A stretch of DNA of 64,000 bases from Escherichia coli (GTDB lineage: Bacteria > Pseudomonadota > Gammaproteobacteria > Enterobacterales > Enterobacteriaceae): the NCBI RefSeq assembly GCF_013315695.1, contig NZ_CP054353.1, one strand, 5' to 3'. This document shows positions 27,535-47,687 of this stretch, in pieces. The notes under the pieces are model-generated. The model ran no database searches. It saw only the letters and a program-made list of their open reading frames with translations, and was not told the DNA's origin. The position numbers and the translations under genes are program-made. How positions within the stretch are numbered: position 1 is the stretch's first letter; each line of letters opens with the position of its first letter.

Positions 27535-28953
27535 ATGCAGGAAAATATATCAGTAACCGATTCATACAGCACCGGGAATGCCGCACAGGCAATGCTGGAG
27601 AAACTGCTGCAAATTTATGATGTTAAAACGCTGGTGGCGCAGCTTAATGGTGTGGGTGAGAATCACTGGAGCGCGGCAATTTTAAAACGTGCGCTGGCGA
27701 ATGACTCGGCATGGCACCGTTTAAGTGAGAAAGAGTTTGCCCATCTGCAAACGTTGTTACCCAAACCACCGGAACATCATCCGCATTATGCGTTTCGCTT
27801 TATCGATCTATTTGCCGGAATTGGCGGCATCCGTCGCGGTTTTGAATCGATTGGCGGACAGTGCGTGTTTACCAGCGAATGGAACAAACATGCTGTACGC
27901 ACTTATAAAGCCAACCATTATTGCGACCCGGCGACGCATCATTTTAATGAAGATATCCGCGACATCACCCTCAGTCATCAAGAAGGCGTGAGTGATGAGG
28001 CGGCGGCGGAACATATTCGTCAACACATTCCTGAACACGATGTTTTACTGGCCGGTTTCCCTTGTCAGCCATTTTCGCTGGCTGGCGTATCGAAAAAGAA
28101 CTCGCTCGGGCGGGCGCACGGTTTTGCCTGCGATACCCAGGGTACGCTGTTCTTTGATGTGGTGCGCATTATCGACGCGCGTCGTCCGGCGATGTTTGTG
28201 CTCGAAAATGTCAAAAACCTGAAGAGTCACGATAAGGGAAAAACGTTCCGCATCATCATGCAGACGCTGGACGAACTGGGCTATGACGTTGCCGACGCAG
28301 CAGATAACGGGCCGGACGATCCGAAAATCATCGACGGTAAACATTTCCTGCCGCAGCACCGTGAACGCATCGTGCTGGTGGGTTTTCGTCGCGATCTGAA
28401 TCTGAAAGCCGATTTTACTCTGCGTGATATCAGCGAATGTTTCCCTGCACAGCGAGTGACGCTGGCGCAGCTGCTGGACCCGATGGTTGAGGCGAAATAT
28501 ATCCTGACGCCGGTGCTGTGGAAGTACCTCTATCGATATGCGAAAAAACATCAGGCGCGCGGTAACGGCTTCGGTTATGGAATGGTTTATCCGAACAATC
28601 CGCAAAGCGTCACCCGTACGCTGTCTGCTCGTTATTACAAGGATGGCGCGGAAATTTTAATCGACCGCGGCTGGGATATGGCCACGGGTGAGAAAGACTT
28701 TGACGATCCGCTGAATCAGCAACATCGTCCACGTCGGTTAACACCTCGTGAATGCGCGCGCTTAATGGGTTTTGAAGCGCCGGGAGAAGCGAAATTCCGC
28801 ATTCCGGTTTCGGACACTCAGGCCTATCGCCAGTTCGGTAACTCGGTGGTCGTGCCGGTCTTTGCCGCGGTGGCAAAACTGCTTGAGCCAAAAATCAAAC
28901 AGGCGGTGGCGTTGCGTCAGCAAGAGGCACAACATGGTCGACGTTCACGATAA
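27535..28953 (+). CDS. dcm: DNA-cytosine C5-methyltransferase Dcm
   Basis: 472 aa; motifs FxGxGG (FAGIGG), PCQ (GFPCQPFS), ENV (ENVKN); matches E. coli Dcm. Confidence 0.95.
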
Positions 28954-29404
28954 GGCCACCCGCAGCAAAAATATGCGCGCGATTGCCACGCGTGATACGG
29001 CGATTGAGAAGCGCCTCGCCAGTTTGTTAACCGGGCAGGGCCTTGCGTTTCGCGTTCAGGACGCCAGTCTGCCCGGACGCCCGGATTTTGTCGTTGATGA
29101 ATATCGCTGCGTGATATTTACCCACGGCTGCTTCTGGCATCATCATCACTGCTATCTGTTTAAAGTGCCTGCGACTCGAACCGAGTTCTGGCTGGAGAAG
29201 ATAGGTAAAAATGTTGAACGCGATCGCCGCGATATCAGTCGCTTGCAGGAGCTCGGCTGGCGCGTACTGATTGTCTGGGAGTGTGCGTTACGTGGGCGCG
29301 AGAAGCTGACGGATGCGGCGCTTACCGAGCGTCTGGAAGAGTGGATCTGCGGCGAAGGTGCCAGCGCGCAGATCGACACGCAGGGGATTCATTTACTCGC
29401 TTGA
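28934..29404 (+). CDS. vsr: Very-short-patch repair endonuclease Vsr
   Basis: 156 aa from ATG 28934 ([16 protein letters not shown]...), overlapping the dcm 3' end as in E. coli. Confidence 0.9.
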
Positions 29405-30313
29405 TGCATCCTGAATAACTGGCGCGACAACGGGTTTGGCCGGGAAGAGATATTTTCCCAACGTGACCAGTACCACCGCGAAAACAATTACGCCGAGCGC
29501 CAGCCATTCAATTTTCGACAGCGTTTCGCCACCCAGTCCCGTACCCAGCAAGACCGCGACCACCGGGTTAACGTAGGCGTAGCTGGTGGCGAGAGCCGGA
29601 CTGACATTACGGATTAAATACATATAAGCGTTAATGGCGATAATCGAACCAAACAGCGCCAGATAGCCGACCGCAAGGAAGCCTGACAGGGAAGGGAGCG
29701 CCGTCAGTTTTTCACCCGCAATCATCGATGCGATCATTAACACCACGCCTGCCGCCAGCATCTCAATCGCACCCGCCATCATCCCTACAGGTAAGGTAAT
29801 GCGCGAGCCATAAACTGAGCCAAACGCCCAGCTAATCGAGCCGATTAAAATCAGAATCGCGCCCCACGGATTGCCGCTTAAATTTCCACCGCTATTGAGC
29901 ATGATGATTCCGGCAAGCCCAATGGCGATACCCACCCATTCCAGTTTGCGCGTTTTAATGCCAAACAGGCGGCTGAAGCACAGGGTAAAGAGGGGCACGG
30001 TTGCAACCACTACGGCGGCGATGCCGGAAGGAACATTTTGATGTTCGGCAACCGTCACCATGCCATTACCGACAGCCAGCAATAACAGGCCAATCAGCGC
30101 GGCATTGAGCAGCGGACGTAGCGGGGGAAGTTTGTGTCCGCGCAGTAGCAAAAATGCCAGCAATAAAATACCGGCTGCCAGGAATCGAACGCCCGCCATC
30201 ATTAACGGAGGCCAGCTTTCCACGCCAATCCGAATGACAAAATAGGTTGAGCCCCAAATGATATACAACGCAAACAGCGCGCCAAAAAGCGGTAACAACT
30301 GGCGGAAACGCAT
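29393..30313 (-). CDS. yedA: EamA/DMT-family transporter YedA
   Basis: 306 aa, 10 TM-like segments; matches E. coli YedA. Confidence 0.9.
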   Translation of the reverse strand: MRFRQLLPLFGALFALYIIWGSTYFVIRIGVESWPPLMMAGVRFLAAGILLLAFLLLRGHKLPPLRPLLNAALIGLLLLAVGNGMVTVAEHQNVPSGIAAVVVATVPLFTLCFSRLFGIKTRKLEWVGIAIGLAGIIMLNSGGNLSGNPWGAILILIGSISWAFGSVYGSRITLPVGMMAGAIEMLAAGVVLMIASMIAGEKLTALPSLSGFLAVGYLALFGSIIAINAYMYLIRNVSPALATSYAYVNPVVAVLLGTGLGGETLSKIEWLALGVIVFAVVLVTLGKYLFPAKPVVAPVIQDASSE

Positions 30314-31834: not shown

Positions 31835-32626
31835 GTGCAGCACGAGACAAAAATGGAAAACCAGAGCTGGTTGAAAAAACTCGCACGCCGCCTGGGGCCT
31901 GGTCATATCGTTAATCTCTGCTTTATCGTGGTATTGCTTTTTTCCACCTTGCTCACCTGGCGTGAAGTGGTGGTGCTGGAAGATGCCTATATCTCCAGCC
32001 AGCGTAATCATCTGGAAAACGTAGCCAACGCGCTCGATAAGCATTTGCAGTATAACGTCGACAAACTGATCTTTTTGCGTAATGGCATGCGCGAAGCTCT
32101 CGTGGCGCCACTGGATTTCACCTCTCTGCGTAATGCCGTAACCGAGTTCGAACAGCATCGCGACGAGCACACCTGGCAAATCGAACTCAACCGACGGCGC
32201 ACCCTGCCAGTCAATGGCGTATCGGATGCATTAGTCAGCGAGGGGAATCTCCTGTCTCGCGAAAATGAAAGCCTCGACAATGAAATTACCGCTGCACTGG
32301 AAGTTGGTTACTTGCTGCGACTGGCGCACAACTCCTCGTCGATGGTTGAACAGGCGGTGTATGTCTCGCGTGCTGGATTTTACGTTTCGACGCTGCCGAC
32401 CTTGTTTACGCGCAATGTACCAACGCGTTATTACGGCTATGTCACCCAACCCTGGTTTATCGGCCATTCACAACGAGAAAATCGTCACCGCGCGGTACGC
32501 TGGTTCACTTCGCAACCGGAACACGCCAGCAATACTGAACCGCAGGTTACCGTCAGTGTTCCGGTAGACAGTAATAACTACTGGTTGATCAGACATGAGA
32601 TAAATGAAGGGGGATCCGTGAGATAA
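31835..32626 (+). pseudogene. dgcQ: Diguanylate cyclase DgcQ (YedQ), 5' fragment only (periplasmic sensor domain); truncated by prophage insertion
   Basis: About 264 codons matching the DgcQ N-terminal region, then a premature stop in phage-derived sequence; no TM or GGDEF domain follows. Confidence 0.8.
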
Positions 32627-43545: not shown

Positions 43546-44136
43546 GTGATGAACATGGCAGGGATTCAGGTTATCGCAGGAAGTTTTCCTAAAGGGTGGG
43601 CAAGCATGGGGTTCGGTACCATCGTGTTTGCCAAAAAAACAAAACAAGGCTTTCCTGAAAATATTGTATTAAATCTGAAAGAAGAGCTTTTATCGATTGA
43701 ACTTGCGGATAGTGAAGAGGAAAGCCGTATAGGTAAGGCGGCAGGCGCAGGTTTGCTTGGTGGATTAATCTTTGGTGGTGCAGGGTTGGTCATTGGAGGT
43801 TTGCTTGGTGCGGCGGACAAGACGAAAAAAACTATCACTTTTAAGGCAATGTTTACGGGAAATAGGTTACTTCTGGCTAAAACAGATTCAAAAACTTTTG
43901 TAAAACTTCAGTCAATTGCTGCTGATAATGCCCATAACGCATCTGTAATCAACATGAAGCAAACTAATAGGGGCGATGTTTCTTCTCGTAAACAACTAAC
44001 AGAAAATCCACAGCAGCAAGACTTACCTGCGCCCGCTACAACAGTAAAAATGACTGCCAAAGATAAGTTAGAATCGGCTCTTGGGCTGGGAATCATCGTT
44101 ATAGCTGTTTGGGCAATAATACACTTCTTTTTTTAG
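43546..44136 (+). CDS. Hypothetical glycine-zipper membrane protein (196 aa)
   Basis: Central GxxxG-rich segment AAGAGLLGGLIFGGAGLVIGGLLGAA and C-terminal TM LGLGIIVIAVWAIIHFFF. Confidence 0.55.
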   Translation: MMNMAGIQVIAGSFPKGWASMGFGTIVFAKKTKQGFPENIVLNLKEELLSIELADSEEESRIGKAAGAGLLGGLIFGGAGLVIGGLLGAADKTKKTITFKAMFTGNRLLLAKTDSKTFVKLQSIAADNAHNASVINMKQTNRGDVSSRKQLTENPQQQDLPAPATTVKMTAKDKLESALGLGIIVIAVWAIIHFFF

Positions 44137-44173
44137 TGCAGCCCTTCAGGGCTGTTTCTGTTCAGGAGGTATC

Positions 44174-44650
44174 TTAAGGATTATCCGGGGCGTTTTCCTG
44201 TTTGCCGTACTTCGGAGACGAACAACATTCTGTTGGCTGACCGGTGAGTTTACGTAACTCCTTCATGAGCAGCTCCTGATCGTAAACTGTCATCAGTGCC
44301 GCAATGGTGGCATGCAGTGCATCGGGCAGTATCCAGGGTTGCCGGCCCGTGGGGCATATAACATCCAGCAGCTCATTCGTCCGACAGATACGCTCCTCGC
44401 CGTATGACAACAGGCCCTGTCCCGTGTATTCCTCTAGCCTGATCACTGTGCCACCCCGTGGCTTCTGCCAGGTCGTCAGATCTTCGCCATTCATACGGCG
44501 CTCATTCTCCACGTCAGCAGCATCGACAATGACGCTGTTTCCGAGTTCCTGTTTCACCATCTCTTCTATCCGCGCCAGTACGTAACTTTTACCGCTGCCC
44601 ACAGGACCGGACACAGTGACAGTGATGACCGGATTCAGTGTGTGCGTCAT
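44174..44650 (-). CDS. Small P-loop NTPase (158 aa), function unknown
   Basis: Walker A GPVGSGKS at residues 25-32, Walker-B-like VIVDAAD; convergent with the membrane protein genes. Confidence 0.55.
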   Translation of the reverse strand: MTHTLNPVITVTVSGPVGSGKSYVLARIEEMVKQELGNSVIVDAADVENERRMNGEDLTTWQKPRGGTVIRLEEYTGQGLLSYGEERICRTNELLDVICPTGRQPWILPDALHATIAALMTVYDQELLMKELRKLTGQPTECCSSPKYGKQENAPDNP

Positions 44651-44780
44651 ATCGTATTCTCCTCTGTGAATAATTCATCGTTTATCCTGCACATCCCGTA
44701 TCCCCGGCTCTCTTAACGCGCTTTAAAATCCTTCGCGCCCTGTATTTGTGATGCTGTCTCCACCAAACGAGGAGACACAC

Positions 44781-45131
44781 ATGAAAAACCTGAAAAAATT
44801 CATTCCCCCTGTTAAAAAACCTCGCCTCAGCGGCTGGCTGCTGACCTCAGTGCTGTTGCTGGGCACCATCGCTCTGGTCTCACCACAGCAGCTGCCTGTT
44901 GTGATCTACAAGCTGGCACTCATCACGCTGGCAGCAGTGCTGGGTTACTGGCTTGACCGTTCGCTCTTCCCCAAAGCCCGTCCCGGTCAGTACCTGAAAC
45001 ATGACGACAGGCTGATGGCTGAAGGGCGTTTCCCGGTACAGACCGGCCTTCACCTGGTGTTTTCTGCTGCGTTAATCCGCCGTGCACTGATTGTTGCAGC
45101 GGTCTGCCTGGCTGTTGCGATGGGGCTTTAA
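44781..45131 (+). CDS. Putative holin (3 TM segments)
   Basis: 116 aa from ATG 44781 (GAGGAG upstream); first gene of lysis cassette upstream of endolysin. Confidence 0.5.
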   Translation: MKNLKKFIPPVKKPRLSGWLLTSVLLLGTIALVSPQQLPVVIYKLALITLAAVLGYWLDRSLFPKARPGQYLKHDDRLMAEGRFPVQTGLHLVFSAALIRRALIVAAVCLAVAMGL

Positions 45132-45133
45132 TC

Positions 45134-45874
45134 ATGAACTGGCCGCAGATCACCTGGATTGTATGCATGTCCCTGAAACTGGCTTTCGAAGCCTTTCGGG
45201 TCTTCATCAGAACCGAACGCCTGTCAGTCCGCGCCGGGACCTTTCTGGTTCATATGGCATGGGTATTCTTTGTCGCAATGTTGCTCTGGTGTGGCGGCTT
45301 TTTCAGCCAGGCATGCGCAGCACAACCTCCGCAGGCTGCGCTGCAGTATCGCGATGATGTGATCCGTAATGCCCGGCTTGAATGGGGACTGTCTGCGCCG
45401 GTGGCCGATTTCGCCGCGCAACTGCATCAGGAAAGCGGCTGGCGACCTGATGCGATCTCGCCGGCTGGCGCTCAGGGACTGGCGCAGTTCATGCCTGCCA
45501 CTGCCGACTGGATAAGCCAGTTGATACCGATGCTGAGCAGTCGTGAGCCGTTTAATCCGGCATGGGCTATCCGGGCGCTGGTCAGCTATGACCGCTGGCT
45601 GTGGCAGCGTGTCAGCGCCGCCAGTGACTGCGAGCGTATGGCCATGACACTGTCGGGCTATAACGGTGGTCTGGGCTGGGTACAACGGGACAGGCGGCTT
45701 GCATCACAGAAAGGTCTGGACAGCACCCGCTGGTTCGGACATGTCGCCACGGTGAATGCCGGACGCAATGCGGCCAGCTGGCGGGAGAACCGCCATTATC
45801 CGCAGCGCATCCTGCGCGAACTGGCACCGCGATATCTCACATGGGGAGGCAGCAGTTGTGTGGCATCTGGTTAA
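45134..45874 (+). CDS. Endolysin, lytic transglycosylase (SLT domain) with N-terminal hydrophobic signal-anchor-release-like segment (start may be 45254)
   Basis: Catalytic region ...HQESGWRPDAISPAGAQGLAQFMPATA...; hydrophobic Gly-containing N-terminal stretch. Confidence 0.75.
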   Translation: MNWPQITWIVCMSLKLAFEAFRVFIRTERLSVRAGTFLVHMAWVFFVAMLLWCGGFFSQACAAQPPQAALQYRDDVIRNARLEWGLSAPVADFAAQLHQESGWRPDAISPAGAQGLAQFMPATADWISQLIPMLSSREPFNPAWAIRALVSYDRWLWQRVSAASDCERMAMTLSGYNGGLGWVQRDRRLASQKGLDSTRWFGHVATVNAGRNAASWRENRHYPQRILRELAPRYLTWGGSSCVASG

Positions 45875-46508
45875 AAAGCTGCCGTGGCGCGGCATTCTGC
45901 TGGCCATTCTTATCAATGCCTTTCTGGTCGGCCTGTATGCCATGGGATACAGAAGTGGTCATGACTCTGCAAAGCGTGACGGTGATACCGCGCTCAGTCA
46001 GTTGCAGTCAGCATTTGACGCGTACAAAACGGAGCAGGCAACGCTTGAGAATGCTGCGCTGCGGGCCTGGGCCAGACGGTATCAGGAGCAGGTGGCCGCC
46101 GGGCAGCGGGCTGAAGCCGGTTATCTTGAGCAGATTGCTCAACTGGAGAGCCGGAACAAACAACTACAGGGGCAAATTAACGATGTCACACAGCGCTGGA
46201 TTGATGAAAAAGGTAAGAGTCATCCCATTGAGTGCGTGTTTACTCGCGGTTTCGTGCGCCAGTACAACGCCGCACTCGGGTATGACAACGCATCTGTCGA
46301 CACCGGTCATTCAGACTCAGTTGCCGCCACTGGCACCCGCTCTGGCACAGCGACCGGGCAACCTGAAACCACTGACACCCGGTTACGCGATTCGGGTGTC
46401 TCCCAGCGTGACGTTCTCGCCAACATCATCGACAACGCAGGACAATGTCGTCGCTGGCGGAACCAGATAAACGCGTTACTGGATGAACGGGAAGGATTAC
46501 AGAAATGA
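45858..46508 (+). CDS. Inner-membrane spanin Rz-like (i-spanin)
   Basis: GTG start with GGAGG RBS; N-terminal TM then long coiled-coil; overlaps endolysin 3' end. Confidence 0.65.
   Translation: MWHLVKKLPWRGILLAILINAFLVGLYAMGYRSGHDSAKRDGDTALSQLQSAFDAYKTEQATLENAALRAWARRYQEQVAAGQRAEAGYLEQIAQLESRNKQLQGQINDVTQRWIDEKGKSHPIECVFTRGFVRQYNAALGYDNASVDTGHSDSVAATGTRSGTATGQPETTDTRLRDSGVSQRDVLANIIDNAGQCRRWRNQINALLDEREGLQK
46204..46470 (+). CDS. Outer-membrane lipoprotein spanin Rz1-like (o-spanin), embedded in the +1 frame of Rz
   Basis: MKKVRVIPLSAC... with lipobox LSAC, Pro-rich mature region. Confidence 0.6.
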   Translation: MKKVRVIPLSACLLAVSCASTTPHSGMTTHLSTPVIQTQLPPLAPALAQRPGNLKPLTPGYAIRVSPSVTFSPTSSTTQDNVVAGGTR

Positions 46509-46831
46509 CACTGCAGGTTGAATTCTGGACGGTGGTGAGTTTTTTGCTCACCTTCATGGGGTTTGTGGGAGGGCTCGCCAAATGGTTGTTCAGTAAAACA
46601 GAAGAACGCCAGGCGGCACGATTCGCCTCTCTTGAACAGGCCCTGCAACAGTCCGCATCCAACTGGGGCGAGCTGGAAAAAGAATTTATGCGATTTAAAG
46701 CGGATTTACCGCTGAATTATGTCCGTCGCGAGGATTATATCCGTGGCCAGACAGTCATCGAGGCCAAACTGGACGCGCTTTATAACAAACTGGAAGTGGT
46801 ACAGCAGTACCGCAATACCGGAGGTCAATAA
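46505..46831 (+). CDS. Small membrane-anchored protein (Mu gp25-like position)
   Basis: 108 aa; N-terminal TM then coiled-coil; between spanins and packaging genes. Confidence 0.45.
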   Translation: MTLQVEFWTVVSFLLTFMGFVGGLAKWLFSKTEERQAARFASLEQALQQSASNWGELEKEFMRFKADLPLNYVRREDYIRGQTVIEAKLDALYNKLEVVQQYRNTGGQ

Positions 46832-47142
46832 TGGTCGATATTACCCGGGTACGCCGCGAATCCCTGCGCTGGAGTCTGCTGGTTGCCCTGAACAAAACCC
46901 GCCCTTACACCGCCAGCGAAACGTTGCTGCTGGACGTGTCCCGCGCCATCTACCCGGACACCACGCAACTGGAGCTGCGCCGGGAGCTTGATTATCTGGC
47001 AGATCGCAAAATGGTGGAGCTGGAGAAGAGACCGTCCGGTGACTGGTTTGCCGATCTGAGTCGCCTTGGTGTGGATATTGTGGAATACACCGTGGAATGC
47101 GGCCCGGGTATTGCCCGACCGGAAAAATACTGGAGTGAGTGA
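46831..47142 (+). CDS. Hypothetical protein (Mu gp26-like position)
   Basis: 103 aa; operonic with ATGA overlaps. Confidence 0.45.
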   Translation: MVDITRVRRESLRWSLLVALNKTRPYTASETLLLDVSRAIYPDTTQLELRRELDYLADRKMVELEKRPSGDWFADLSRLGVDIVEYTVECGPGIARPEKYWSE

Positions 47143-47687
47143 TTATGGGACGTCGCAGCAGCATTGATTCTCTGCCGACGGATGTCCGCCGCTGGCTGGA
47201 GCGGGCGCTGACGGAGAATAATTTCACCGGCTATGCTGAACTTGAAAGTTTGTTAAAAGAGAGGGGATATGTGATAACCCGCTCCTCCCTGCAGCGGTTC
47301 GGCTACAAAATGGAGCAGCAACTGGCCCGTGTTCGTGCGGCAACTGAAGCAGCCAGGCTGATGGCTCGTGAAGCGGGGGATGATGCGGATGACCGTTCTG
47401 CGGGACTGATGACGTTGATCCAGACGGAGATGATCGACATCCTGATGCGTCTGCAACAAGTCAGTGACGAGAATGATCCGACTGATCGGGCGAAATTGCT
47501 GGCCACCGCTTCCCGCAATATTGCGACCCTGACCCGCGCCTCTGTCAATCTCAAGCGTTTTCAGAGTGAGGTCAAGGAAAAAGCAGAACTTGCAGCGAAT
47601 GCGGCCGAGAAAATTGCCCGTAAGGGCGGATTGTCAAGCGACGCAGTACAGGCACTTCGTCGCGAGATTCTGGGGATTGCCACATGA
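47139..47687 (+). CDS. Putative terminase small subunit (Mu gp27-like)
   Basis: 182 aa immediately upstream of large terminase; N-terminal HTH-like region. Confidence 0.55.
   Translation: MIMGRRSSIDSLPTDVRRWLERALTENNFTGYAELESLLKERGYVITRSSLQRFGYKMEQQLARVRAATEAARLMAREAGDDADDRSAGLMTLIQTEMIDILMRLQQVSDENDPTDRAKLLATASRNIATLTRASVNLKRFQSEVKEKAELAANAAEKIARKGGLSSDAVQALRREILGIAT

What the first reader, a model, noticed from the sequence alone, without database searches (positions are those of the whole stretch)
45134..46508. Lysis cassette: transglycosylase endolysin with hydrophobic N-terminus plus nested Rz/Rz1 spanins
The endolysin is an SLT-type lytic transglycosylase with a Gly-containing hydrophobic N-terminal segment, a signal-anchor-release candidate. 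The i-spanin starts at a GTG inside the endolysin 3' end. A complete o-spanin ORF with a canonical lipobox (LSAC) is embedded in the +1 frame of the i-spanin at 46204-46470. The nested gene would be missed by standard gene callers.
Basis: partly seen in the sequence, partly recalled or inferred. Interest (0 to 1): 0.35.

Follow-up and report, generated by a model that had tools for sequence, protein, structure and literature searches.

The report
BcepMu-type prophage lysis cassette, unannotated o-spanin
This is an ordinary lysis gene cassette of a Mu-like (BcepMu-type) prophage of E. coli, with a real but never-annotated outer-membrane spanin gene nested inside the inner-membrane spanin gene; the endolysin looks secreted and cleaved, not a signal-anchor-release enzyme.

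Summary
The sequence features are all present at the stated coordinates. The window is an E. coli chromosome carrying a transposable BcepMu/B3-like prophage. Bases 44781-46831 match BcepMu genes 21-25 gene for gene: holin, SLT endolysin, i-spanin, embedded o-spanin and a gp25-like membrane protein.

The embedded +1 ORF (46204-46470) is a real gene. It stays open in every relative examined, from 100% down to 27% i-spanin identity. Sequence variation switches to its third codon position exactly where the i-spanin has a disordered linker. It is homologous to the annotated BcepMu Rz1. No public record calls it.

The lipid-modified cysteine is most likely Cys18 (LAVS-C), not Cys12 (LSAC). The endolysin N-terminus is not a simple SAR domain. 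It is a two-helix membrane hairpin that exists as a stand-alone 52-aa gene in Pseudomonas relatives. Its second helix is strongly hydrophobic. It is followed by an A-x-A|A site with a hypervariable -2 position, conserved across 102 homologs, including ones with plain signal peptides. Signal-peptidase processing is therefore favoured over SAR.

This is a new member of a known kind. Interest is low.

The parts
44781..45131 (+). Holin (116 aa, three hydrophobic segments). Its stop codon lies 2 nt before the endolysin ATG (TAATCATG).
   Evidence: Pfam Holin_2-3 PF13272 at 1.1e-41 (141.8 bits, cut-off 27). PHROG phrog_1528 'holin' at 5.5e-55. 52% identical to BcepMu gp21 holin. Hydropathy.
45134..45874 (+). 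SLT-type lytic transglycosylase endolysin precursor (246 aa, 27.7 kDa).
   Evidence: PF01464. phrog_669 'endolysin' at 8.8e-69. 61% identical to BcepMu gp22 over residues 62-238. E100 aligns to Slt70 E478. AF2 model with best Foldseek matches to MltF and MltE.
45134..45319 (+). N-terminal two-helix membrane module of the endolysin (aa 1-62). AF2 helices span residues 3-27 and 33-52, with a basic loop RTERLSVRAG between them, ending in LLWCGGFFSQACA.
   Evidence: AF2 secondary structure. Matches stand-alone family phrog_5479 end to end: window allele 5e-4, sister alleles 5e-15 and 2e-14, B3 7e-9. It is a separate 52-aa gene in Tom33 and in P. aeruginosa prophages. Three alleles share no DNA similarity.
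45311..45322 (+). Predicted signal peptidase I site A60-C61-A62 | A63 (mature enzyme 184 aa, 20.5 kDa).
   Evidence: Column counts in 102 homologs: -3 is A89/V3/S3; -2 is N41/H20/R14/S4/D4/Q3/A2/C1/Y1; -1 is A99/S2; +1 is A98. The same AQPP/ARPP mature start (as AAQPP in two of the three) follows plain signal peptides in Brenneria/Pectobacterium homologs. Masses. Cleavage itself is inferred, not shown.
45858..46508 (+). i-spanin (Rz-like, 216 aa). It has a GTG start and an SD GGGGAGG at 45843-45849. Layout: TMD about aa 13-31, a long helix to about 118, the conserved CVFTRGFVRQYNAALG motif, a disordered linker at 144-177, and a C-terminal helix at 183-215. Periplasmic Cys126 and Cys197.
   Evidence: phrog_1403 'Rz-like spanin' at 4.8e-92. 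RefSeq WP_016234468 'lysis system spanin subunit'. Homology to B3 Rz and BcepMu Rz. Start-codon conservation. AF2. Hydropathy.
46204..46470 (+). Embedded o-spanin (Rz1-like, 88 aa) in the +1 frame of the i-spanin. The signal peptide is MKKVRVIPLSACLLAVS, followed by the lipid-modified Cys18 (TGC 46255-46257). The mature part is 70 aa after Cys18 with 10 Pro and 20 Ser+Thr. An alternative in-frame ATG at 46183 would give 95 aa.
   Evidence: PROSITE-type rule passes only at Cys18. The ORF is 88 aa and open in all 43 distinct enterobacterial i-spanin genes. Present in Pectobacterium, Morganella and Brenneria at 45-48% identity, in B3 and Tom33, and in BcepMu gp24 'Rz1' at 34%, E 4e-10. Codon-phase switch. 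The start giving Cys18 is the only one shared by all relatives.
46505..46831 (+). BcepMu gp25-like membrane protein (108 aa). It has an N-terminal TMD, FWTVVSFLLTFMGFVGGLA, then a soluble helical part. It sits in the slot that holds a DUF2730 (Mu gp25 'releasin' family) gene in some relatives. Membership of the lysis cassette is inferred from position only.
   Evidence: phrog_462 at 1.6e-36. 49% identical to BcepMu gp25. Morganella and Tom33 carry PF10805/phrog_736 at this position. No sequence similarity to Mu gp25.

Best explanation
Window 44781-46831 is the lysis cassette at the head of the late operon of a transposable, BcepMu/B3-type (Mu-like) prophage integrated in an E. coli chromosome.

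Shown by sequence and comparison:
- The genes match BcepMu gp21-gp25 one for one: holin, SLT lytic transglycosylase, i-spanin, an o-spanin wholly embedded in the +1 frame of the i-spanin, and a gp25-like membrane protein.
- The embedded ORF is under its own purifying selection.

Inferred mechanism:
1. The endolysin is inserted by the Sec/YidC route as an N-out/C-out helical hairpin. The basic loop stays in the cytoplasm and the catalytic domain reaches the periplasm.
2. Signal peptidase I most likely cuts after Ala62 (A-C-A|AQPP). This releases a 20.5-kDa periplasmic transglycosylase and leaves a 7-kDa two-helix peptide in the membrane.
3. The enzyme stays harmless until the holin triggers and collapses the membrane potential, as for other exported endolysins.
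4. Peptidoglycan is then cleaved. This frees the spanin complex: the i-spanin anchored in the inner membrane by its TMD, and the o-spanin lipid-anchored in the outer membrane through Cys18. The complex fuses the two membranes and completes lysis.
For: Identity and synteny:
- The region is 100% identical to E. coli ST131 chromosomes and 99.2% identical to the isolated phage PhiKM, classified as Bcepmuvirus. It is present in 637 of 5426 complete E. coli genomes.
- Gene-by-gene homology to BcepMu gp21-26 runs from 28% to 61%. Downstream lie Mu gp27-like, TerL and portal genes.

Spanins:
- phrog_1403. AF2 gives TMD, long helix, disordered linker and C-terminal helix.
- The embedded ORF is kept open, at exactly 88 aa in the 43 distinct enterobacterial genes, and is also present in Pectobacterium, Morganella, Brenneria, B3, Tom33 and BcepMu.
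- Mean diversity by i-spanin codon position is 0.152/0.117/0.298 upstream of the overlap.
- It becomes 0.182/0.049/0.070 where o-spanin residues 19-64 overlap the i-spanin linker. The peak there falls on the o-frame third position.
- It returns to 0.067/0.073/0.209 over the i-spanin C-terminal helix, and is near zero over the o-spanin signal peptide/CVFT motif.
- Kongari et al. 2018 (PMC6139136) list the B3 and BcepMu groups among embedded spanins.

Endolysin export:
- Two-helix hairpin in AF2.
- The -3/-1 rule holds with a hypervariable -2 position in 102 homologs.
- Homologs exist with plain signal peptides in front of the same mature N-terminus, and BcepMu gp22 has MRVLIAFVVALLGAAAPVAA|Q.
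- SignalP predicted a cleavage site in the KS10 homolog (PMC2628397).
- Exported endolysins held inactive until the holin collapses the membrane potential are reviewed in PMC6116005.
Against: - No experiment bears on this cassette, and no dedicated signal-peptide or lipoprotein predictor could be run.
- The h-region before the putative cleavage site is about 22 residues. That is long for a cleaved signal and typical of a signal anchor.
- The first helix of the window's allele contains Lys, Glu and Arg (summed dG 5.74), so its membrane insertion is uncertain.
- Translation could instead start at Met41.
- The mature o-spanin has no periplasmic cysteine, unlike the B3, BcepMu and Morganella homologs.
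- The sequences used for the conservation counts are related by descent, so the counts are not independent events.
Confidence: 0.8

Rival explanations
1. [quoted passage not shown] Its Gly-containing hydrophobic segment holds the uncleaved enzyme in the inner membrane, and the segment slips out when the holin depolarises the membrane.
For: The enzyme is exported by an N-terminal hydrophobic segment containing a conserved GG (G54 in 101 and G55 in 91 of 102 homologs). The sister alleles have a weaker second helix with Asn/Gln (summed dG 3.9-4.0). Chamblee et al. 2022 (PMC9239132) describe transglycosylase-type SAR endolysins in Pseudomonas Mu-like siphophages. The h-region is long for a cleaved signal.
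Against: There are two helices rather than one N-terminal TMD. The window's second helix is as hydrophobic as the i-spanin TMD (0.27 against -0.06) with 21% Gly/Ala/Ser/Thr. The proven Mu gp22 SAR scores 7.54 and 53%. An A-x-A|A site with a hypervariable -2 position is conserved. Close homologs carry ordinary cleavable-looking signal peptides before the same mature end.
Confidence: 0.2
2. The endolysin stays uncleaved and stably tethered by the two-helix hairpin. It needs a dedicated partner for release: the gp25-like membrane protein at 46505-46831 would act like the Mu gp25 releasin, or the holin would do so.
For: [quoted passage not shown] It sits exactly where Morganella and Tom33 relatives carry a DUF2730/phrog_736 gene. 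DUF2730 genes map within five genes downstream of the endolysin in Mu-like phages (PMC9239132).
Against: There is no detectable similarity to Mu gp25 by BLASTP, by hmmscan at E up to 10, or by hhalign (probability 0.8%). Brenneria relatives with a plain signal-peptide endolysin also carry the p108 type, so the two features do not co-vary. The conserved cleavage-type site argues against a permanent tether.
Confidence: 0.15
3. The embedded +1 ORF is a chance open frame in a G+C-rich gene and makes no protein.
For: ORF length alone is unremarkable: a +1 ORF of at least 88 aa arises in 13-38% of shuffled i-spanin genes. No profile library holds a model that matches it.
Against: The ORF is open with the same start and a lipobox in every relative, down to 27% i-spanin identity. 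Codon-phase variation switches to the o-frame. o-spanin identity (45-48%) matches i-spanin identity (42-49%) in distant relatives. A lipoprotein-rule ORF arises in only 0.6-1.1% of shuffles. It is homologous to the annotated BcepMu Rz1.
Confidence: 0.01
4. The endolysin is a lipoprotein, like the host Mlt enzymes, lipid-modified at Cys61 (FSQA-C).
For: FSQAC matches the loose PROSITE lipobox pattern. The Tom33 homolog has a genuine-looking lipobox signal, MKRLLTLGLLGLLSAC.
Against: Cys61 occurs in 1 of 102 homologs. The column is otherwise N/H/R/S/D/Q, and near-identical E. coli alleles have R or S there. The cysteine lies 61 residues from Met1.
Confidence: 0.02

Closest known systems
Burkholderia phage BcepMu lysis cassette, gp21-gp25 (NC_005882)
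   Same: The gene order and homology are the same: holin 52%, SLT endolysin 61% over the catalytic part, Rz 28%, an embedded out-of-frame proline-rich Rz1 34% (E 4e-10), and gp25 49%. gp26, gp27 (small terminase, TerS), TerL and portal follow. PhiKM, 99.2% identical to the window, is classified as Bcepmuvirus.
   Different: BcepMu gp22 has a short single signal peptide (203 aa). The window enzyme carries a 62-aa two-helix module. BcepMu Rz1 has a second periplasmic Cys; the window o-spanin has none.
Pseudomonas phage B3 ORF24-28 and relatives (JBD18/25/67, Tom33)
   Same: The i-spanin is 30-33% identical. There is an embedded o-spanin with an AAGC lipobox at the homologous place. B3 ORF25 carries the same two-helix module fused to SLT. 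B3 ORF28 is the same family as the window's 108-aa protein (phrog_462). The B3 group is catalogued as embedded spanins (PMC6139136).
   Different: In Tom33 the two-helix module is a separate 52-aa gene, the endolysin has its own lipobox-type signal, and the downstream slot holds a DUF2730 gene.
Phage lambda Rz/Rz1 (prototype embedded two-component spanin)
   Same: The architecture matches: a type II inner-membrane protein with two helical regions and a flexible linker, and a small proline-rich outer-membrane lipoprotein encoded entirely within it in the +1 frame. As reported for lambda, the constrained part of one gene overlaps the tolerant part of the other (PMC6139136).
   Different: No detectable sequence similarity to the lambda family was sought or found. 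The best profile is phrog_1403, and other Rz PHROGs match only weakly. The o-spanin is longer (88 aa) and lacks a periplasmic Cys.
Phage Mu gp22 (SAR endolysin), gp23/gp23.1 spanins and gp25 releasin (PMC9239132)
   Same: The module order in a transposable phage is the same: exported endolysin, spanins, a small N-terminal-TMD protein, then gp26 and gp27-like genes.
   Different: Mu has no holin and a muramidase with a weakly hydrophobic SAR (summed dG 7.54, 53% Gly/Ala/Ser/Thr). Here there is a holin, an SLT enzyme and a strongly hydrophobic helix followed by an A-x-A site. The 108-aa protein is not detectably DUF2730.
Secreted, signal-peptidase-processed endolysins (Oenococcus phage fOg44 Lys44; predicted for Burkholderia phage KS10 gp9)
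   Same: A predicted Sec export signal is removed by signal peptidase, and lysis timing still depends on holin-driven depolarisation (PMC6116005). The KS10 SLT lysin is a homolog with a SignalP-predicted cleavage at 44/45 (PMC2628397).
   Different: Here the export signal is the second helix of a two-helix module that also exists as an independent gene. Processing is not demonstrated.

Membership tests
Two-component spanin, embedded architecture (Rz/Rz1 type; Kongari et al. 2018) | i-spanin: an N-terminal TMD with a periplasmic domain of helical regions separated by a flexible linker | tested here: met
   Hydrophobic segment at aa 13-31 (summed dG -0.06). AF2 gives helix 10-118, a low-confidence linker at 144-177 and helix 183-215. 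phrog_1403 at 4.8e-92.
Two-component spanin, embedded architecture (Rz/Rz1 type; Kongari et al. 2018) | o-spanin: a small protein with a lipoprotein signal peptide and lipobox cysteine | tested here: met
   A PROSITE PS51257-type rule, coded by hand, passes at Cys18 (LAVS-C) and not at Cys12. Cys18 aligns with the LVSC/LASC/LSAC/AAGC lipoboxes of relatives. LipoP and SignalP were not available.
Two-component spanin, embedded architecture (Rz/Rz1 type; Kongari et al. 2018) | o-spanin gene lies entirely inside the i-spanin gene in the +1 frame | tested here: met
   46204-46470 lies within 45858-46508, and (46204-45858) mod 3 = 1.
Two-component spanin, embedded architecture (Rz/Rz1 type; Kongari et al. 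2018) | Outer-membrane sorting (no Asp at +2 after the lipid cysteine) | tested here: met
   The mature N-terminus is C-A-S-T. The E. coli Lol avoidance rule is taken from established knowledge.
Two-component spanin, embedded architecture (Rz/Rz1 type; Kongari et al. 2018) | Periplasmic cysteine(s) for intermolecular disulfide in at least one subunit | tested here: met
   The i-spanin has Cys126 (invariant in 14 homologs) and Cys197. The mature o-spanin has none. About 4% of catalogued systems lack periplasmic Cys entirely (PMC6139136).
Two-component spanin, embedded architecture (Rz/Rz1 type; Kongari et al. 2018) | Both overlapping frames are under selection (the embedded gene is coding) | tested here: met
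   Codon-phase switch of diversity. The ORF is retained in all relatives.
Two-component spanin, embedded architecture (Rz/Rz1 type; Kongari et al. 2018) | Required for outer-membrane disruption at lysis; the subunits form a complex | not testable with these tools
   Needs complementation of lambda Rz-am/Rz1-am or phage mutants.
Family 1 lytic transglycosylase (Pfam SLT, PF01464) | Profile match above the gathering score, and a catalytic Glu in the E-S motif | tested here: met
   53.8 bits against 21.3. HQE100SGW aligns with RQE478SAW of Slt70. The GLAQFMP and SGYNGG motifs are present. E100 is invariant in 102 homologs. Foldseek's best matches are MltF and MltE.
SAR (signal-anchor-release) endolysin | A single N-terminal TMD preceded by a short basic cytoplasmic stretch | tested here: not met
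   There are two helices (3-27 and 33-52) with a basic loop between them. The layout would be met only if translation starts at Met41, and that start lacks a basic n-region in the window allele.
SAR (signal-anchor-release) endolysin | A weakly hydrophobic TMD rich in Gly/Ala/Ser/Thr | tested here: not met
   The window helix 35-53 has summed dG 0.27 and 21% G/A/S/T. Mu gp22 SAR scores 7.54 and 53%, and the i-spanin TMD scores -0.06. The sister alleles are intermediate (3.9-4.0).
SAR (signal-anchor-release) endolysin | The signal is not removed by signal peptidase; the enzyme is released from the membrane on depolarisation | not testable with these tools
   Comparative data point towards cleavage, but only an experiment can decide.
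Sec signal peptide cleaved by signal peptidase I | Small neutral residues at -3 and -1, a variable -2, and no Pro from -3 to +1 | tested here: met
   In 102 homologs: -3 is A89/V3/S3/P1, -1 is A99/S2, -2 takes nine residue types, and +1 is A98.
Sec signal peptide cleaved by signal peptidase I | A short h-region (about 7-15 residues) after a basic n-region | tested here: inconclusive
   A basic loop (R26, R29, R33) precedes the helix, but the hydrophobic stretch is about 22 residues. Brenneria homologs have a 14-residue h-region.
Holin (Pfam Holin_2-3, PF13272) | Profile match above the cut-off; a small protein with 2-3 TMDs next to the endolysin | tested here: met
   141.8 bits against 27. Three hydrophobic segments. 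The gene lies immediately upstream of the endolysin. Hole formation was not tested.
Releasin (Mu gp25, DUF2730 / PF10805), considered for 46505-46831 | Profile or sequence similarity to DUF2730 | tested here: not met
   No BLASTP alignment. No Pfam hit at E up to 10. hhalign probability 0.8%. It belongs to a different PHROG, 462 rather than 736.
Releasin (Mu gp25, DUF2730 / PF10805), considered for 46505-46831 | An N-terminal TMD with a soluble C-terminal domain, encoded within five genes downstream of the endolysin | tested here: met
   TMD at aa 7-25. The gene lies directly after the spanins. The same slot holds DUF2730 in Morganella and Tom33.

The most novel reading that the evidence does not exclude
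The 62-residue two-helix hairpin in front of the SLT domain may be an independent lysis-control module (family phrog_5479, function unknown) rather than a mere export signal. In Pseudomonas relatives it is a separate 52-aa gene next to an endolysin that has its own signal. In B3 and in the enterobacterial prophages examined here it is translated as one chain with the endolysin, and signal peptidase would set it free. It comes in at least three alleles that share no DNA similarity. It could act as a tether, timer or antiholin-like partner of the Holin_2-3 holin. That would be a way of regulating an exported endolysin not described so far.
Probability: 0.25. Interest if true: 0.45.

Novelty: new member of a known kind. 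Interest (0 to 1): 0.2.

Why it matters
The practical value is in annotation.
- The cassette sits in 637 of 5426 complete E. coli genomes, many in the ST131 lineage, and in an isolated uropathogenic E. coli (UPEC) phage.
- Its o-spanin is absent from every record inspected and from a 15-billion-protein collection.
- This adds one more case to the known problem that 196 of 528 o-spanins were unannotated (PMC6139136).

For lysis biology, the cassette is a tractable E. coli example of an SLT endolysin whose export signal varies between close relatives. The variants are a two-helix hairpin, a plain signal peptide and a lipobox signal. The downstream slot also alternates between a DUF2730 releasin-family gene and an unrelated gp25-like gene. 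Together these could be used to test how exported endolysins are held in check. None of this changes current concepts.

Tried and rejected
1. ORF length as evidence for the nested gene. Rejected: 13-38% of shuffled genes have a +1 ORF at least as long.
2. Cys61 of the endolysin as a lipobox. Rejected: it is unique among 102 homologs.
3. The window's odd N-terminal allele as a frameshifted copy of the common allele. Rejected: the DNA alignment shows unrelated sequence between conserved flanks.
4. Homology of the 108-aa protein to the Mu gp25 releasin. BLASTP, hmmscan at E up to 10 and hhalign were all negative. The DUF2730 side of the hhalign comparison had only two sequences, so this remains weakly tested.
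5. The upstream ATG 46183 as the o-spanin start. It has a better Shine-Dalgarno sequence (GGGG at 46169-46172), but no equivalent start was found in the Brenneria relative. It is kept only as an alternative.
6. I first assumed the window was collinear with NZ_CP103742 and expected a lambdoid lysis cassette near 28.7-31.4 kb. This was wrong. The window has dcm/vsr/yedA there, and the prophage sits at a different chromosomal site.
7. Searches that found nothing useful:
   - PDB sequence search with the i-spanin.
   - NCBIfam models for the spanins.
   - PADLOC on the neighbouring genes.
   - Sigma-70 promoter scan.
   - Literature search for phage PhiKM.
   - Literature search for SAR transglycosylase endolysins of Mu-like phages.
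8. A hand-made hydropathy sum separates the Mu SAR from the window helix.
Full report
**What is there.** On the + strand the ORF list and the sequence show a tightly packed gene row.

| Gene | Coordinates | Notes |
|---|---|---|
| 116-aa ORF | 44781-45131 | three hydrophobic segments |
| 246-aa ORF | 45134-45874 | ATG lies 2 nt after the previous stop (TAATCATG) |
| 216-aa ORF | 45858-46508 | GTG start, 17 nt inside the previous gene, behind GGGGAGG |
| 88-aa ORF | 46204-46470 | +1 frame of the 216-aa ORF |
| 108-aa ORF | 46505-46831 | overlaps the previous stop by ATGA |

Profile searches name them as follows:
- Holin: Pfam Holin_2-3 at 1e-41, phrog_1528.
- SLT transglycosylase: PF01464 at 53.8 bits against a cut-off of 21.3; phrog_669 'endolysin'.
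- Rz-like spanin: phrog_1403 at 5e-92.
- Membrane protein: phrog_462.
- The 88-aa ORF matches nothing.

Downstream come a Mu gp27-like small terminase, the large terminase and the portal.

**Where it comes from.**
- The stretch is 100% identical to E. coli ST131 chromosomes and occurs in 637 of 5426 complete E. coli genomes.
- It is 99.2% identical to the isolated uropathogenic E. coli (UPEC) phage PhiKM, classified as Bcepmuvirus, and 87-88% identical to Klebsiella phage KP12 and Escherichia phage Phi06_2974 B.
- The surrounding genes are those of a transposable Mu-like phage: Mor, Gam, transposase, DUF935 portal and a contractile tail.
- In this window the prophage interrupts dgcQ. Only 5 of the 5426 genomes share that site, as expected for random transposition.

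**Comparison with BcepMu and B3.** The annotated BcepMu genome has the same order: holin gp21, endolysin gp22, Rz gp23, gp24 ('Rz1, out of frame, embedded proline-rich protein'), gp25, gp26 and small terminase (TerS) gp27. Pairwise identities to the window proteins are 52, 61 (catalytic part), 28, 34 (E 4e-10), 49 and 57%. The i-spanin is also 30-33% identical to the Rz of Pseudomonas phage B3 and its relatives. Kongari et al. 2018 list both the B3 group and the BcepMu group among embedded two-component spanins (PMC6139136). The cassette is therefore a member of a described kind.

**Is the nested ORF a gene?** Its length proves nothing. In shuffled versions of the i-spanin gene a +1 ORF of at least 88 aa appears in 13-38% of trials, while an ORF passing a lipoprotein rule appears in 0.6-1.1%. 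The comparative evidence is decisive.
- In 43 distinct i-spanin genes from 63 loci (58 IMG/VR loci plus phage and E. coli records, down to 70% protein identity) the ORF is always exactly 88 codons with no stop.
- Upstream of the overlap, diversity by i-spanin codon position is the usual 0.152/0.117/0.298.
- Over o-spanin residues 19-64 it becomes 0.182/0.049/0.070, so the peak moves to the third position of the nested frame.
- Over o-spanin residues 65-88 it returns to 0.067/0.073/0.209.
- Over the o-spanin signal peptide, which overlaps the invariant i-spanin motif CVFTRGFVR, it is close to zero in all three positions.
- AlphaFold places the region where the nested frame dominates in a low-confidence linker of the i-spanin (residues 144-177), between a long helix (10-118) and a C-terminal helix (183-215). 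This is the division of labour reported for lambda Rz/Rz1.
- In Pectobacterium, Morganella and Brenneria prophages the i-spanin is only 42-49% identical, yet the nested ORF persists (79-91 aa, depending on the start codon) at 45-48% identity. It is also present in B3 and Tom33.

**Which cysteine?**
A hand-coded PROSITE-type lipoprotein rule accepts only LAVS-C18. Cys12 is too close to the start and has Lys/Arg in the stretch that must be uncharged.
- In the more distant relatives the second motif is a textbook LVSC or LASC, while the first can be LNAC.
- BcepMu has LAAC...LSAC, with the second cysteine at the proper distance. B3 has only the second (AAGC).
- The start giving an 18-residue signal is the only one shared by all relatives, so 46204 stands. 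The ATG at 46183 remains a possible alternative.
- The mature protein (70 aa after Cys18, 10 Pro, 20 Ser/Thr) begins C-A-S, with no Asp at +2. This fits outer-membrane sorting.
- It has no further cysteine. The i-spanin has Cys126 (invariant) and Cys197.

**Annotation status.** None of the GenBank or RefSeq records inspected annotates the nested gene. The exact 88-aa and 95-aa sequences are not in a collection of about 15 billion predicted proteins. The exact endolysin and i-spanin sequences are there on about 1000 or more contigs each. This fits the known figure of 196 unannotated o-spanins among 528 systems.

**The endolysin.**
- *Catalytic domain.* It is a standard family 1 lytic transglycosylase. 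Glu100 aligns with Glu478 of Slt70 and is invariant in 102 homologs. The model's best fold matches are MltF and MltE.
- *N-terminus.* Relatives show two hydrophobic stretches separated by a basic loop, ending in a conserved LLWCGGFFSQAxAA(Q/E)PP. AlphaFold gives helices 3-27 and 33-52, then coil to residue 66.
- *Alleles.* This part comes in at least three alleles with unrelated DNA between conserved flanks.
- *A separable module.* All alleles match, end to end, a 53-aa phage protein family of unknown function, phrog_5479: 5e-4 for the window allele, and 5e-15, 2e-14 and 7e-9 for the others and B3. In Pseudomonas phage Tom33 and in P. aeruginosa prophages this module is a separate 52-aa gene ending in GGFFG. 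The endolysin there has its own signal, MKRLLTLGLLGLLSAC.

**SAR or cleaved?**
- The residues around the junction behave like a signal peptidase I site. In 102 homologs, -3 is A/V/S in 95, -1 is Ala in 99, +1 is Ala in 98, and -2 takes nine different residues including Asn, His, Arg and Asp.
- The window's Cys61 at -2 is unique, which removes the idea of a lipobox there.
- Brenneria and Pectobacterium homologs have an ordinary signal peptide (MARRIHYNGSGSGWLFLLLILLLTGAFGSNA) before the same AQPP mature start. BcepMu gp22 has one too. SignalP predicted a cleavage site for the KS10 homolog (PMC2628397).
- The window's second helix has a summed biological hydrophobicity of 0.27 with 21% Gly/Ala/Ser/Thr. 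That is like the i-spanin TMD (-0.06) and unlike the proven SAR of Mu gp22 (7.54, 53%).
- Against cleavage, the hydrophobic stretch is about 22 residues, which is long for a cleaved signal.
- I therefore favour Sec/YidC insertion as an N-out/C-out hairpin followed by cleavage after Ala62. This would give a 20.5-kDa periplasmic enzyme and a 7.2-kDa membrane peptide. I put this at roughly 55% within the overall model, with SAR at about 20% and a stable tether at about 15%.
- Exported endolysins are known to stay inactive until the holin collapses the membrane potential (PMC6116005). That would be the role of the Holin_2-3 protein upstream.

**The gene after the spanins.** The 108-aa protein is the homolog of BcepMu gp25 and B3 ORF28, with one N-terminal TMD. 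In Morganella and Tom33 relatives the same slot is filled by a DUF2730 protein, the family of the Mu gp25 releasin (PMC9239132). I found no sequence similarity between the two. The p108 type also accompanies a plain signal-peptide endolysin in Brenneria. A role in lysis is therefore only a positional inference.

**Verdict.** It also omits the holin. This is a new member of a known kind, the BcepMu/B3-type lysis cassette with embedded spanins. The only unusual feature is the separable two-helix module in front of the endolysin, whose function is open.

Noticed in passing
window 31835-32584 (+), and the prophage left end near 32.6-32.8 kb: The Mu-like prophage interrupts dgcQ, the cellulose-regulating diguanylate cyclase, which RefSeq marks as a pseudogene missing its C-terminus. 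Only 5 of 5426 complete E. coli genomes share this insertion site. Other strains carry the same prophage elsewhere, for example inside a lambdoid prophage in NZ_CP103742.
   Followed up: partly
window 46505-46831; L072 3872-4174; L007 2313-2699: The slot directly after the spanins alternates between two unrelated small N-terminal-TMD proteins. One is the phrog_462 / BcepMu gp25 type, found here and in B3, Pectobacterium and Brenneria. The other is DUF2730 (the Mu gp25 releasin family), found in Morganella and Tom33. This suggests a non-orthologous replacement of one function.
   Followed up: partly
window 45134-45290; L022, L038, L049 and others: The first ~45 codons of the endolysin exist as at least three alleles with no DNA similarity, between conserved flanks (MNWPQ... 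and ...LLWCGGFF). The first helix of the window's allele is poorly hydrophobic (it contains K15, E19 and R22). A fourth two-helix type occurs in Salmonella (P0165).
   Followed up: partly
window 44174-44650 (- strand): A 158-aa P-loop protein (GPVGSGKS; phrog_3787; RefSeq name 'ABC transporter ATPase') lies divergently just upstream of the holin. Otherwise near-identical prophages and PhiKM carry different ORFs of 549-744 nt in this slot, so it is a variable cargo position. PADLOC gave no convincing match.
   Followed up: partly
window 45841-46470 (+1 frame): In this window the +1 frame is open for 209 codons, from inside the endolysin 3' end to the o-spanin stop. PhiKM has a stop that cuts it. 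The long version is therefore not conserved and is probably meaningless, but a gene caller could report it.
   Followed up: yes
window 44138-44155 (+): A terminator-like hairpin, GCAGCCCTTCAGGGCTGT followed by a T-rich tail, lies directly after the ORF 43546-44136. No sigma-70-like promoter was found in 44100-47200, consistent with activator-dependent late transcription.
   Followed up: no
window 27535-29404 (+): The host genes dcm (472 aa) and vsr overlap here, as usual in E. coli, with yedA on the opposite strand at 29393-30313. This shows that the left part of the window is ordinary chromosome.
   Followed up: no
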